Shown here: positions 474-3,784 of the stretch, in pieces
Layout of the letters: every line of letters starts with the position of its first letter
How positions within the stretch are numbered: position 1 is the stretch's first letter
Source of the DNA: Octopus sinensis
Taxonomy: Eukaryota
DNA: 12,776 bases
Assembly: GCF_006345805.1 (NCBI RefSeq)
Contig: NW_021826190.1
Coordinates: 1-12,776 of the forward strand
Direction: 5' to 3'
Program-made: the position numbers

Positions 474-1207
474 ATATAATATATATATATACATATATAT
501 ACGACAGGGCTTTTTTCATTTCCGTCTACCAAATTCACTCACAAGGCATTGGTCGGCCCGGTGCTATAGCAGAAGACACTTGCCCAAGATGCCACGCAGT
601 GGGACTGAACCCGGAACCATGTGGTTGGTTGGCAAGCTACTTACCACACAGCCACTCCTACGCCTGAAATTTCTTGACAATTTTTTGACTGTTGCCTTAA
701 TTTTGGGACACCATGTGCATATATGGTCGACTTTATGTAGTCAAAAACAAAATGTCCCACAATAAATATCGGCTTAGATACAGGGTGCGGTGAATATATT
801 GTCGTCTAAATTACGCAGACATCAAAATGCTACTGACATCTCATTTTAACAGATATATTTACCAAAATTACATTAAATATCTTGAAATACTAAAGAGTAA
901 ATTTATTCAATGAAATCGCCATTTATATGGGTTTTCGTTACAGTCACAATATTTCATGAAAGATGTAAGAATTTTCTTTAAACTTTCAACTATTTGAAAA
1001 TAATCTTTAAAAAGCAGAATGATACAAAACTTTTGGAATGAACATTATTTAAATTATTTACATTTGATGGATATTTGTCCTCATCTTGTTGTTGTTGACA
1101 CAACGTTTCGGCTGATATATTCTTCAGCCATCATCAGTGTCTGGGTAAATTTCGAACCTGGGTTCTCATTCCTAAGGTAATTTTTCGATGTTATTATTAT
1201 TATTATA

Positions 1208-1252
<45 letters not shown>

Positions 1253-3315
1253 TCCATTATTAACATTTGATTGGATATTTGTCCTCATCTTGTTTGTTGT
1301 TAACACAAACATTTCAGCTGATCATACCCTCCAGCCGTCTCAGGTGTCTTGGGGAAATTCGAGCCTGGTTCTCATTCCTAAGGTAGTTTTCGATATTATT
1401 ATTATTATTAATTTGTCCTCATCTTGTTTGTTGTTAACACAACGTTTCGGCTGATATACCCTCAAGCCGTCTTCTTCAGGTGTCTTGGGAAATTTCGAGC
1501 CTGGTTCTCATTCCTAAGGTAGTTTTCGATATTATTATTATTATTATTTGTCCTCATCTTGTTTGGTTGTTACACAAACATTTCGGCTGATATACCCCGC
1601 AGCCGTCTTCTTCAGGTGTCTTGGGGAAATTTCGAGCCTGGGGTTTCTCATTCCTAAGGTAGTTTTCGATATTATTATTATTATATTTGTCCTCATCTTG
1701 TTTGTTTGTTGTTACAACAACATTCGGCTGATATACCCTCAAGAGCCGTCTTCAGTGTCTTGGGGAAATTTCGAGCCTGGGTTCTCATTCCTAAGGTAGT
1801 TTTCGATATTATTATTATTATTATTTGTCCTCATCTTGTTTGTTGTTAACACAACATTTCGGCTGATATACCCTCAAGCCGTCTTCAGGTGTCTTGGGGA
1901 AATTTCGAGCCTGGGTTCTCATTCCTAAGGTAGTTTTCGATATTATTATTATTATTATTTGTCCTCATCTTGTTTGTTGTTAACACAACGTTTCGGCTGA
2001 TATACCCTCAAGCCGTCTTCAGGTGTCTTGGGGAAATTTCGAGCCTGGGTTCTCATTCCTAAGGTAGTTTTCGATATTATTATTATTATTATTTGTCCTC
2101 ATCTTGTTTGTTGTTAACACACATTTCAGCTGATAAACCCTCCAGCACCGTCTTCAGGTGTCTTGGGGAATTTCGAGCCTGGGTTCTCATTCCTAAGGTA
2201 GTTTTCGATATTATTATTATTATTATTTGTCCTCATCTTGTTTGTTGTTAACACAACATTTCGGCTGATATCCCTCAAGCCGTCTTCAGGTGTCTTGGGG
2301 AAATTTCGAGCCTGGGTTCTCATTCCTAAGGTAGTTTTCGATATTATTATTATTATTATTTGTCCTCATCTTGTTTGTTGTTAACACAACATTTCGGCTG
2401 ATATACCCTCAAGCCGTCTTCAGGTGTCTTGGGGAAATTTCGAGCCTGGGTTCTCATTCCTAAGGTAGTTTTCGATATTATTATTATTATTATTTGTCCT
2501 CATCTTGTTTGTTGTTAACACAACGTTTCGGCTGATATACCCTCAAGCCGTCTTCAGGTGTCTTGGGGAAATTTCGAGCCTGGGTTCTCATTCCTAAGGT
2601 AGTTTTCGATATTATTATTATTATTATTTGTCCTCATCTTGTTTGTTGTTAACACAACATTTCGGCTGATATACCCTCAAGCCGTCTTCAGGTGTCTTGG
2701 GGAATTTCGAGCTGGGTTCTCATTCCTAAGGTAGTTTTCGATATTATTATTATTATTATTGTCCTCATCTTGTTTGTTGTTAACACAACATTTCGCTGAT
2801 ATACCCTCACCGTCTTCAGGTGTCTTGGGGAAATTTCGAGCCTGGGTTCTCATTCCTAAGGTAGTTTTCGATATATTATTATTATTATTTGTCCTCATCT
2901 TGTTTGGTGTTAACACAACGTTTCGGGCTGATATACCCTCAAGCCGTCTTCAGGTGTCTTGGGGAAATTTCGAGCCTGGGTTCTCATTCTAAGGTAGTTT
3001 TTCGATATTATTATTATTATTATTTGTCCTCATCTTGTTGTGTGTTAACACAACATTTCGGCTGATATATACCCTCAAGCCGTCTTCAGGTTGTCTTGGG
3101 GAAATTTCGAGCCTTGGGTTCTCATTCCTAAGGTAGTTTTCGATATTATTATTATTATTATTTGTCCTCATCTTGTTTGTTGTTAACACAACGTTTCGGC
3201 TGATATACCCTCAAGCCGTCTTCAGGTGTCTTGGGGAAATTTCGAACCCGGGTTCTCATTCCTAAGGTAGTTTTCGGTGCTATTATCATCATCATCATCA
3301 TTATCATTATTATTA

Positions 3316-3389
<74 letters not shown>

Positions 3390-3784
3390 ATGTTGTTGTT
3401 GTGTTGTTGTTTTGTTGTTGTGTTATTATTGTTGTTGTTGTTATTAATTATTATTATTATTATTGTGTTGTTGTTTCTTATTATTATTATTATTATTGTT
3501 ATTATTATTATTATTATTGTTGTTATTATTATTATTATTATTATTGTTGCTTTGTTGTTGTATTATTATATTATTTTGTTGTTGTTGTTGTTGTTGTTAT
3601 TATTATTATTATTATATTATTAATTATACATTATTTATTATTCAGGTCACTGCCTGGAAACGAACTCGGAATCTTGCTCTTAACCACTACGCCATTTGCA
3701 CGGGCTACTAACCCCAAGATTCCGAGTTCGATTCCAGGTAGTGATGATAATAATAATAATAATAATAATAATAATTATTATAAT

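What the first reader, a model, noticed from the sequence alone, without database searches (positions are those of the whole stretch)
1009..3697. tRNA-derived Pol III head fused to the ribozyme array, with no terminator until after the last unit
Seen: upstream of the array and on the same (minus) strand are an A box (3694-3684) and a B box-like motif (3665-3656). By eye, the minus strand has no T4 run from 3694 down to 1030; the first T4 and T5 runs are at 1029-1026 and 1013-1009. The opposite strand has TTTT in every unit. Inference: this is a SINE whose 3' module is a Penelope-type hammerhead unit rather than a LINE tail, and Pol III could transcribe it as one ~2.7-kb precursor. I do not know this combination as a characterised family, but cannot search. 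Caveat: this copy's B box has lost a conserved A and the anticodon arm is deleted.
Basis: partly seen in the sequence, partly recalled or inferred. Interest (0 to 1): 0.85.

Follow-up and report, generated by a model that had tools for sequence, protein, structure and literature searches.

The report
Decayed tRNA-like head beside hammerhead repeat array
This is a decayed copy of a small parasitic DNA element: a tRNA-like promoter remnant, a simple-repeat linker and 16 tandem units that each carry a minimal hammerhead ribozyme motif, a design already known in outline from blood flukes.

Summary
On the minus strand there is an exact A box (3694-3684), a weakened B box (3665-3656) and no T4 from 3901 down to 1030. 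T4 and T5 follow at 1029-1026 and 1013-1009.

The missing terminator carries almost no weight. The 2.7 kb is one A-rich 134-nt unit copied 16 times plus microsatellite. 58% of shuffles of the 237 nt of non-redundant sequence also lack T4.

The units fit the published description of Penelope-type minimal hammerheads, although Rfam finds no hammerhead. Three of 16 units pass my strict descriptor, against 0 of 1000 shuffled windows. Ten of 16 have lost the CG that forms helix III in a dimer.

No tRNA finder recognises the head. It lacks an anticodon-arm-sized segment (17 nt between the boxes instead of about 33), and its B box has lost a conserved A.

An inverted, 5'-truncated partial copy (3700-3930, plus strand) repeats the order head, microsatellite, unit start. 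This favours one composite element with Penelope-style insertion marks.

I read the locus as a fossil, not an active Pol III gene. The closest precedent is the Schistosoma Sm-alpha SINE-like hammerhead element. Whether head and unit co-occur genome-wide could not be tested.

The parts
3643..3701 (-). tRNA-like head. A box at 3694-3684 and B-box-like motif at 3666-3656. In tRNA numbering, positions 8-26 run straight into 44-73, so an anticodon-arm-sized segment is absent.
   Evidence: No tRNA by ARAGORN or by Rfam at E<=10.
3700..3748 (+). Inverted, 5'-truncated partial head. It holds a putative anticodon arm (loop CTACTAA) and a T arm with the better B box AGTTCGATTCC at 3725-3735, but has no A box.
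   Evidence: 0 mismatches here, 1 mismatch at 3653-3674 (-).; 93.3% over 30 nt; 3745-3643 folds as a hairpin, -54.1 kcal/mol, z -8.8.
3747..3896 (+). (ATA)n linker of the inverted copy.
   Evidence: period 3, 50.3 copies.
3897..3930 (+). First ~31-34 nt of a unit body in plus orientation. It breaks off after GAGAACCCAG.
   Evidence: 3898-3927, 93.5% over 31 nt, E 4e-6; the only plus-strand anchor is at 3900.
3281..3642 (-). Expanded (AAT)n/(AAC)n microsatellite between the head and the array.
   Evidence: period 3, 122 copies, 82% matches.
1277..3276 (-). Units 1-15 (130-140 nt; unit 15 taken here up to GGACAAAT). Each is a ~114-nt body plus (AAT)5-6.
   Evidence: 14.9 copies, 94% matches; unit starts; u6=u10 and u7=u11 are identical.
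2514..2565 (-). Example minimal hammerhead domain (unit 6). Helix I strand 2562-2558; CUGAAGA 2557-2551; extra C 2550; helix II plus loop 2549-2530; GAAA 2529-2526; CG 2525-2524; UU 2523-2522. Predicted cleavage between 2522 and 2521.
   Evidence: the MFE of the 52-nt domain is exactly helix I (5 bp) plus helix II.
1256..1276 (-). Tail ATCCAATCAAATGTTAATAAT after unit 15. Units 1-14 lack it.
1191..1252 (-). (AAT)n between unit 15 and unit 16.
   Evidence: period 3, 20.7 copies.
1078..1187 (-). Unit 16, the most diverged copy. Its hammerhead core is intact (CUGAUGA, GAAA, CG, UU).
1053..1072 (-). Tail after unit 16 (ATCCATCAAATGTAAATAAT).
1009..1029 (-). First T4 (1029-1026) and T5 (1013-1009) runs on the minus strand. 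They lie in flanking sequence, not in the conserved element.

Best explanation
The region is a fossil locus of a SINE-like, non-autonomous retroelement read on the minus strand. It consists of a tRNA-like head, an (AAT)n linker and a ~114-nt body that carries a Penelope-type minimal hammerhead (no helix III). Body plus linker is multiplied into 16 tandem units, and a ~20-nt tail is present only after units 15 and 16.

An inverted, 5'-truncated partial copy abuts the 5' end. Tandem copies, an inverted 5'-truncated neighbour, a short tail at one end and microsatellite context are the published marks of insertion by Penelope-like element (PLE) machinery. From these I infer that a PLE reverse transcriptase/endonuclease placed it here. 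Part of the array then grew by DNA-level block duplication.

In an active master copy the head would give Pol III initiation. Adjacent hammerheads would pair through the AACGUU palindrome and cut the multimer after GUU. That step is inferred, not shown.

This copy is decayed: the head is shortened, the B box is weakened and most ribozymes have lost the CpG. The long T4-free stretch is a by-product of copying one A-rich unit.
For: Anatomy:
- 16 units on the minus strand.
- Head with an exact A box.

Hammerhead, compared with the features in PMC4209133 (passages; section 5):
- CUGANGA...GAAA in 14 of 16 units, against 0.56 matches expected per window.
- G10.1-C11.1 closing a 6-bp helix II.
- No helix III.
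- Palindromic 15.2/16.2 CG in 6 of 16 units.
- A 5-bp helix I.
- My strict descriptor: 3 of 16 units, and 0 hits in 1000 dinucleotide shuffles of the window.
- MFE of the 52-nt domain equals helix I plus helix II.

Composite order:
- The head 3' part, the microsatellite and the unit start recur in inverted orientation at 3700-3930.
- That copy and unit 16 share the junction (AAT)n-AACATCGAAAA.

PLE hallmarks, from Craig et al. 2021, PMC8557442 (passages): partial tandems and multicopy head-to-tail insertions of non-autonomous elements, an inverted 5'-truncated copy at the 5' end, a 30-40-bp tail at one end, and microsatellite bias.

Block duplication: u6=u10 and u7=u11, 300 nt identical at a 535-nt offset.

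A second, unrelated array (5470-4403, minus strand) also has a unique 5' segment followed by 5.5 tandem units.
Against: - No Rfam hammerhead hit at gathering score or at E<=10, even on 268 nt.
- No tRNA by ARAGORN (default, -ps, -ps90, -ps80), not even on a scripted composite of the two partial heads, nor by Rfam.
- No covariation is available. Between the two most diverged copies, core plus helix II changed at 1 of 26 positions against 15 of 88 elsewhere, one-sided Fisher p=0.075.
- My descriptor was written after I had seen the sequence.
- The two inverted arms are adjacent and may stem from one duplication, so head-unit linkage may rest on a single event.
- Unit 16 has linker, body and tail but no head.
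- The inverted copy is also truncated at its 3' side, which the PLE model does not predict.
- The tail is ~20 nt, not 30-40.
- The head-bearing copy comes first, whereas PLE tandems usually have the truncated copy first.
- Array ends do not coincide with the predicted cleavage site.
- No PLE ORF in the window: 54 stop-to-stop ORFs of at least 70 aa, of which the 10 that are not low-complexity were scanned, with 0 Pfam hits.
- Many single-base length differences between units could be assembly errors.
Confidence: 0.45

Rival explanations
1. This locus is an active Pol III gene: the head drives one ~2.7-kb transcript through linker and array to the T4/T5 at 1029-1009, and the hammerheads then cut it into units.
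For: - Exact A box on the same strand as the ribozymes.
- No T4 on that strand from 3901 to 1030.
- Precedent: Schistosoma SINE-like repeats appear to be Pol III-transcribed as multimers that hammerheads cut (PMC6765202 passage).
Against: - The T4-free stretch is expected by chance for the non-redundant sequence (58%; 86% for one unit).
- The T4/T5 lie in flank where T4 occurs about every 138 nt, and they are absent after the identical tail of unit 15.
- The B box has 2 mismatches including the conserved A. The A-B interval is 17 nt against about 33 in a tRNA.
- No tRNA model matches.
- Ten of 16 units have TG instead of CG at 15.2/16.2. The palindrome duplex falls from -5.7 to -1.4 kcal/mol.
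- Units 9, 12 and 15 have core lesions.
- No expression data could be consulted.
Confidence: 0.1
2. Two unrelated repeats are juxtaposed. A simple tRNA-like SINE with an (AAT)n tail supplied the microsatellite into which a separate hammerhead-bearing element inserted, or beside which it expanded. A local inverted duplication then copied the junction.
For: - PLE-type elements show insertion bias for microsatellites (PMC8557442).
- Every body copy is flanked by AAT repeats on both sides, including degenerate AAT-like sequence after the unit 16 tail.
- Unit 16 has no head.
- The arms of the inverted repeat are contiguous and form a perfect hairpin.
- The window is dense in other SINE-like repeats.
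Against: - It needs an extra duplication event that happens to span head, linker and unit start.
- A head followed directly by a microsatellite with no body would be an unusually short SINE.
- A second array in the window also shows a unique 5' segment followed by tandem units.
Confidence: 0.25
3. The array is an ordinary SINE- or MITE-derived satellite that grew by unequal crossing-over between flanking (AAT)n tracts. The hammerhead likeness is coincidental or long dead.
For: - No Rfam hammerhead match.
- Block duplication of 4 units.
- A ribozyme-free 184-nt array lies next door: 5.5 copies, with no CUGANGA...GAAA match.
- The circular 134-nt monomer is not unusually structured: 45% paired, z -0.92, and 50 of 300 shuffles fold as well.
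- No significant sparing of the core.
Against: - Six separately published features of minimal hammerheads coincide in 52 nt.
- 0 of 1000 shuffled windows meet the descriptor.
- The most diverged unit (16) keeps all 14 core positions that I scored.
Confidence: 0.15

Closest known systems
Sm-alpha / Sj-alpha SINE-like hammerhead retroposons of Schistosoma (Ferbeyre et al. 1998; Laha et al. 2000). Known to me here only through citing papers: PMC6765202, PMC2770079, PMC8490949.
   Same: - tRNA-related, apparently Pol III-transcribed non-autonomous repeats.
- They carry a type I hammerhead and are often in tandem.
- The ribozyme cuts multimeric transcripts, in cis or in trans.
   Different: - There each ~335-bp repeat has promoter plus ribozyme. 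Here one head precedes 16 headless units.
- That ribozyme is a canonical type I hammerhead found with the Rfam motif. This one has no helix III and no Rfam match.
- Different phylum.
Minimal hammerheads (min-HHR) of Penelope-like elements (Cervera and de la Pena 2014, PMC4209133; Lunse et al. 2017, not held).
   Same: - Conserved core.
- Extra nucleotide 5' of helix II.
- G10.1-C11.1.
- Long helix II (6 bp here, 6-8 published).
- Short helix I (5 bp here, 4-5 published).
- No helix III, with palindromic 15.2-16.2, which implies action as dimers.
- Mostly dispersed outside full PLEs.
   Different: - Not in the pseudo-LTR of an RT/GIY-YIG element in this window.
- Arranged as a 134-nt tandem array behind a tRNA-like head.
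Metazoan non-LTR retrozymes (Cervera and de la Pena 2020, PMC7229834; bioRxiv 10.64898/2026.07.22.740005).
   Same: - Low-GC tandem repeats with one type I hammerhead per unit.
- No LTR, PBS or PPT.
- Proposed dependence on PLEs.
   Different: - Retrozymes carry canonical hammerheads. Units of 150-450 bp give highly self-paired circRNAs of ~170-400 nt.
- This unit is 134 nt, carries a minimal hammerhead and is not predicted to be strongly self-paired.
- Those papers, in the passages I searched, do not mention a tRNA-like head or Pol III.

Membership tests
PLE-type minimal hammerhead (min-HHR) | Conserved core CUGANGA ... GAAA. | tested here: met
   14 of 16 units, against 0.56 expected per window. 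Unit 12 has GAA and unit 15 has CUGAGA.
PLE-type minimal hammerhead (min-HHR) | [quoted passage not shown] | tested here: met
   The consensus has C, then GGCU(U)GA / UCAGCC, 6 bp with one bulged U. Unit 16 has 6 bp without the bulge.
PLE-type minimal hammerhead (min-HHR) | No helix III or loop 3; positions 15.2-16.2 palindromic; U16.1 and H17. | tested here: inconclusive
   CG in 6 of 16 units (1, 3, 6, 10, 14, 16) and TG in 10 of 16, a pattern consistent with CpG decay. UU follows in 15 of 16.
PLE-type minimal hammerhead (min-HHR) | Short helix I (4-5 bp) in register with the cleavage site. | tested here: met
   5 bp including one G-U in the consensus units. In unit 16 it pairs only with a one-base shift.
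PLE-type minimal hammerhead (min-HHR) | Families show covariation and compensatory changes. | tested here: inconclusive
   The units are too alike. For unit 6 against unit 16, 1 of 26 core plus helix II positions changed against 15 of 88 elsewhere, p=0.075.
PLE-type minimal hammerhead (min-HHR) | Self-cleavage as a dimer. | not testable with these tools
   Only duplex energies were computed: AACGUU -5.7 and AAUGUU -1.4 kcal/mol.
Rfam hammerhead families | Match to a curated hammerhead covariance model. | tested here: not met
   No hit at gathering score or at E<=10 on 3 kb or on 268 nt. This is expected if helix III is absent.
Metazoan non-LTR retrozyme | Tandem, low-GC repeats with one hammerhead per unit. 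| tested here: met
   16 units, with unit GC of 38.8%.
Metazoan non-LTR retrozyme | Canonical type I hammerhead with helix III and loop 1-loop 2 contacts; units of about 150-450 bp. | tested here: not met
   Minimal hammerhead; unit of 134 nt.
Metazoan non-LTR retrozyme | Monomer RNA highly self-paired and accumulating as circRNA. | tested here: not met
   Circular fold -15.8 kcal/mol, 45% paired, z -0.92. Accumulation as circRNA is not testable here.
tRNA-derived SINE (SINE2) | A box and B box at tRNA-like spacing. | tested here: inconclusive
   The A box is exact. The B box has 2 mismatches in the array-linked copy and 1 in the inverted copy. 17 nt lie between the boxes, against about 33 by standard tRNA numbering.
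tRNA-derived SINE (SINE2) | Head recognisable as a tRNA relative. | tested here: not met
   ARAGORN finds nothing at any threshold, nor on the scripted composite. No Rfam tRNA hit at E<=10. ARAGORN also reported no gene anywhere in a window that holds other SINE-like repeats, so its silence is weak evidence.
tRNA-derived SINE (SINE2) | Many dispersed copies with target-site duplications. | not testable with these tools
   No eukaryotic genome or repeat library was on hand. The flanks are microsatellite.
Sm-alpha/Sj-alpha-type SINE-like hammerhead element | Promoter and hammerhead together in every repeat unit. | tested here: not met
   The head motifs occur once on the minus strand, plus one partial inverted copy; 0 of 16 units contain them.
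PLE-mobilised non-autonomous element | Head-to-tail tandems, an inverted 5'-truncated copy at the 5' end, a short tail at one end, and microsatellite context. | tested here: inconclusive
   All four are present in some form. However, the tail is ~20 nt, the inverted copy is also cut at its 3' side, and no autonomous partner could be compared.

The most novel reading that the evidence does not exclude
A mollusc-type SINE family in which a single tRNA-derived Pol III promoter drives a poly-hammerhead precursor. Neighbouring helix-III-less ribozymes pair through the AACGUU palindrome, cut the multimer into 134-nt RNAs, and these are copied back by Penelope-like reverse transcriptase. It would be a Pol III-driven 'retrozyme-SINE'. 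It would give minimal hammerheads a function and name the polymerase that feeds animal retrozyme-like repeats.
Probability: 0.12. Interest if true: 0.7.

Novelty: new variant of a known kind. Interest (0 to 1): 0.38.

Why it matters
Two questions are still marked open in the papers I read. What do the thousands of minimal hammerheads tied to Penelope-like elements do? The literature says 'still a mystery' (PMC7761336). And how are hammerhead tandem repeats of animals transcribed and mobilised?

A family that joins a Pol III head to minimal-hammerhead units would make both testable in one system. It would also extend the Schistosoma Sm-alpha design to another phylum.

This particular copy is decayed, and the feature that looked most striking, 2.7 kb without a terminator, is a trivial result of repetition.

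Tried and rejected
RNA family and tRNA searches:
- Rfam at gathering score on the whole window gave nothing.
- Rfam at E<=10 on 1000-4000, on the head and on two units gave only chance-level hits (CRISPR-DR64, hairpin-driven miRNA models far below their gathering scores). It gave no hammerhead and no tRNA.
- ARAGORN on the window found 0 genes. The two partial heads and a scripted composite also gave 0 genes at default, -ps, -ps90 and -ps80.

Ideas considered and dropped:
- A second hammerhead per unit (AAGAUGAG...GAAAAC and AAUGAGA...GAAA). Rejected by eye, because C3/U4 are missing.
- A canonical helix III from the GUUGU-GUUA-ACAAC hairpin. Rejected, because A15.1 and C15.2 would have no partners.
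- A plus-oriented unit fragment at the left end (1032-1041). It is only 10 nt with E 0.42, so it is at chance level and was not used.
- Selection on the ribozyme core between the two most diverged units was not significant (p=0.075).
- A rod-like circular fold was not found.
- PLE coding remnants. There are 54 ORFs of at least 70 aa. Ten were scanned, chosen because they are not low-complexity, and gave 0 Pfam hits. The other 44 were not scanned.
- Target-site duplications could not be discerned in microsatellite flanks.

Literature:
- Five full-text searches found no paper describing a tRNA-like head joined to PLE-type minimal hammerheads in molluscs.
- The library does not hold Ferbeyre 1998 or Lunse 2017. 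Their content is taken from citing papers.
The supplementary alignments of minimal hammerheads in PMC4209133, and the supplementary figures of PMC7229834, may already show mollusc or cephalopod examples that I could not see.

Not checked:
- The source organism. I suspect a cephalopod from recalled repeat motifs only.
- Any eukaryotic genome, Repbase, Dfam or SINEBase.
- Genome contigs and the phage, plasmid and E. coli collections were not used, because they are prokaryotic and irrelevant here.
- The two-part head reading (positions 8-26 on the minus copy, 27-73 on the plus copy) and a likeness of the D loop to serine-type tRNAs are inference and recall, not tests.
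Full report
**1. What is there**

The window is eukaryotic, AT-rich and full of microsatellites and SINE-like repeats. It has no N. I was not told the organism and could not determine it.

Read on the minus strand, the region has this order:
- A tRNA-like head, 3701-3643.
- An (AAT)n/(AAC)n microsatellite, 3642-3281 (period 3, 122 copies).
- Fifteen tandem units, 3276-1277. TRF reports 14.9 copies of a 134-nt period with 94% matches; my anchors give the unit starts.
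- A ~20-nt tail, 1276-1256.
- (AAT)n, 1252-1191.
- A sixteenth, more diverged unit, 1187-1078, with the same tail at 1072-1053.
- Flanking sequence.

**2. The observation**

- The A box TGGCGTAGTGG at 3694-3684 matches TRGCNNAGTGG exactly. The window has 2 matches against 0.10 expected, and 0 of 200 shuffles reach 2.
- The B-like motif at 3665-3656 is GTTCGTTTCC. With the preceding base it has two mismatches to GGTTCGANNCC, one at the conserved A. It is therefore absent from the list of matches with at most 1 mismatch, a list that is itself at chance level (3 found, 1.39 expected).
- The minus strand has no T4 from 3901 to 1030 (2876 nt), the longest such stretch on either strand. T4 and T5 follow at 1029-1026 and 1013-1009.
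- The plus strand has a T4+ run in 16 of 16 units.

**3. The missing terminator says little**

- The 2.7 kb is one unit copied 16 times, plus trinucleotide repeats that cannot contain T4 on this strand.
- The unit is A-rich and T-poor (A 41%, T 20%). It lacks T4 in 86% of 20000 shuffles.
- Head plus one unit plus tail (237 nt) lacks T4 in 58% of shuffles.
- Shuffling the whole 2668 nt gives 1.35%, but that treats copies as independent.
- The T4/T5 runs lie about 45 nt beyond the conserved tail. Outside the region, T4 occurs on this strand 71 times in 9825 nt.
- The same tail after unit 15 is followed by (AAT)n, not by T4. So the runs are not part of the element.

**4. The ribozyme**

Rfam finds no hammerhead at gathering score or at E<=10.

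Read by hand, each unit holds: ...AGACAC-CUGAAGA-C-GGCU(U)GA-loop-UCAGCC-GAAA-CG-UU-GUGUU...

Cervera and de la Pena (PMC4209133; passages, section 5) define the minimal hammerhead of Penelope-like elements by these features:
- The conserved core.
- No helix III or loop 3.
- The G10.1-C11.1 pair.
- A large helix II, given as 6 bp in one passage and 7-8 bp in another.
- A short helix I of 4-5 bp.
- Palindromic positions 15.2-16.2, so that two copies form helix III between them.

The consensus unit shows every one of these.

Counts:
- CUGANGA...GAAA is present in 14 of 16 units, against 0.56 expected.
- A strict descriptor that I wrote from that text is met by 3 of 16 units (1, 6, 10) and by 0 of 1000 dinucleotide-shuffled windows. 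It was written after I had seen the sequence.
- The minimum-energy fold of the 52-nt domain is exactly helix I plus helix II.

Results against the hammerhead reading, or neutral to it:
- The 15.2/16.2 dinucleotide is CG in 6 units and TG in 10, which looks like CpG decay. The AACGUU self-duplex drops from -5.7 to -1.4 kcal/mol.
- Units 9, 12 and 15 have core lesions. Some of these may be assembly errors in homopolymers.
- The units are too similar to show covariation.
- Unit 16 keeps all 14 core positions that I scored, but the sparing of core plus helix II (1 of 26 changed, against 15 of 88 elsewhere) is not significant (p=0.075).

I put about 0.8 on this being a real relative of PLE-type minimal hammerheads. 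I put much less on most of these copies being active.

**5. The head**

In standard tRNA numbering with T8 at 3694, positions 8-26 (D arm, AGTGGTTAA loop) run directly into 44-73 (variable region, T arm, 3' acceptor strand). A segment the size of the anticodon arm is absent. Only 17 nt separate the A box from the B box, instead of about 33 (the numbering is my inference).

Immediately upstream, on the other strand, lies a second partial head at 3700-3748. It has a 3-bp stem with the 7-nt loop CTACTAA, then a T arm with the better B box AGTTCGATTCC, but no D arm.

The two T-arm segments are 93% identical over 30 nt. They make 3745-3643 fold as a near-perfect hairpin (-54.1 kcal/mol, z -8.8).

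No tool recognises a tRNA:
- ARAGORN finds none in the window, in either copy, or in a scripted composite of the two, down to -ps80.
- The Rfam tRNA model gives nothing at E<=10 on 131 nt.

So 'tRNA-derived' rests on the two box motifs and on my numbering.

**6. Are head and units one element?**

For:
- The inverted copy continues as (ATA)n (3747-3896) and then the first 31 nt of a unit in the matching orientation (3898-3927, 93.5% identity, E 4e-6). The order head, microsatellite, unit start therefore occurs twice.
- That copy and unit 16 share the junction (AAT)n-AACATCGAAAA.
- Craig et al. (PMC8557442, passages) list the marks of PLE insertions: 5' truncation, partial tandems, multicopy head-to-tail insertions of non-autonomous relatives, an inverted 5'-truncated copy immediately at the 5' end, a 30-40-bp tail at one end, and a bias for microsatellites.
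- The locus shows a version of each. If the inverted copy is of that kind, the element must include the head.
- A neighbouring, unrelated array (minus strand 5470-4403) also has a 5' segment found only once, followed by 5.5 tandem 184-nt units. It has no hammerhead core.
- The architecture of one 5' segment plus repeated body therefore recurs here, and it does not depend on a ribozyme.

Against:
- The two arms touch and may come from one duplication.
- Unit 16 has no head.
- The inverted copy also stops at its 3' side (3930), where another repeat family begins (see section 10).
- The tail is ~20 nt.
- The head-bearing copy is first in the array, not last.

**7. How the array grew**

- Units 6 and 10 are identical, and so are units 7 and 11.
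- 300 nt are identical at a 535-nt offset. TRF scores a 401-nt period equally.
- At least part of the array therefore arose by DNA-level block duplication.
- The array ends do not coincide with the predicted cleavage site (after U at 2522 in unit 6, and equivalent positions elsewhere). Nothing shows that ribozyme-processed RNA was the template.
- As a circle, the 134-nt monomer is 45% paired with z -0.92, unlike the highly self-paired retrozyme circles described in PMC7229834.

**8. Comparison with what is known**

- Schistosoma Sm-alpha and Sj-alpha are SINE-like, tRNA-related elements. Of 2368 tRNA-Gln-like predictions, 2342 were classed as SINE (PMC2770079).
- They carry hammerheads, appear to be Pol III-transcribed and occur in tandem. 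The ribozyme frees units from multimers (PMC6765202; PMC8490949).

The differences here:
- One head for 16 units, rather than a promoter in each.
- A helix-III-less ribozyme.
- A microsatellite linker.
- A different phylum.

Animal non-LTR retrozymes (PMC7229834; the 2026 preprint) share the tandem hammerhead layout and the proposed dependence on PLEs. They have canonical ribozymes and larger units. In the passages I searched they make no mention of tRNA heads or Pol III.

Five searches found no description of this hybrid. Supplements were closed.

**9. Verdict**

- Most likely (0.45): a fossil copy of a composite, PLE-dependent, SINE-like element with minimal hammerheads.
- Less likely: juxtaposition of two separate repeats (0.25).
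- Less likely: a plain satellite with a dead or coincidental motif (0.15).
- Less likely: an active Pol III poly-ribozyme gene at this locus (0.10).

The decisive test, co-occurrence of head and unit across the genome, could not be run with the collections on hand.

**10. Other things seen**

- A tRNA-like SINE family in three copies: 478-665 and 11793-11980 direct, 9354-9549 inverted.
- A repeat with inverted arms at 3944-4045 and 12590-12776.
- A second exact A-box match at 12311-12321.
- A stretch at about 8790-8850 that reads like a Tc1/mariner transposase fragment. This is by eye and recall; it was not among the 10 ORFs sent to Pfam.

Noticed in passing
window 4403-5470, minus strand: A second, unrelated SINE-like array. 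A 5' segment (5465-5432) occurs only once in the window. It is followed by 5.5 tandem 184-nt units (369-nt higher-order period), each holding a B-box-like GAGTTCAAATTCC. There is no hammerhead core, and Rfam finds no tRNA. The 'one 5' segment plus repeated body' layout is the same as in the finding.
   Followed up: partly
window 478-665, 11793-11980 (direct) and 9354-9549 (inverted): Three copies (83-92% alike) of a tRNA-like SINE family, each next to a microsatellite. ARAGORN does not call these as tRNA either.
   Followed up: no
window 3944-4045 and 12590-12776: A repeat family with internal inverted arms (MITE-like or foldback-like). One copy begins about 13 nt after the point where the inverted unit fragment breaks off at 3930, so its insertion may have cut that copy.
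   Followed up: no
window 12311-12330, plus strand: A second exact A-box match (TGGCCCAGTGG). It overlaps a B-box-like GGTTTGAAACC with no spacing between them. Meaning unknown.
   Followed up: no
window about 8790-8850, plus strand: A short frame that reads like a Tc1/mariner transposase fragment (by eye and recall). It was not among the 10 ORFs sent to Pfam.
   Followed up: no
window 3240-3262 (unit 1) and 1150-1170 (unit 16), minus strand: The unit body itself holds a B-box-like GGTTCGAAATT (2 mismatches to the consensus). It reads GGCTCGAAATT in units 2-15, again a C/T difference at a CpG-type site.
   Followed up: no
window 1078-3276: Many differences between units are single-base length changes in short homopolymers (GAA/GAAA, CCC/CCCC, GG/GGG). 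They could be long-read assembly errors rather than real mutations.
   Followed up: no
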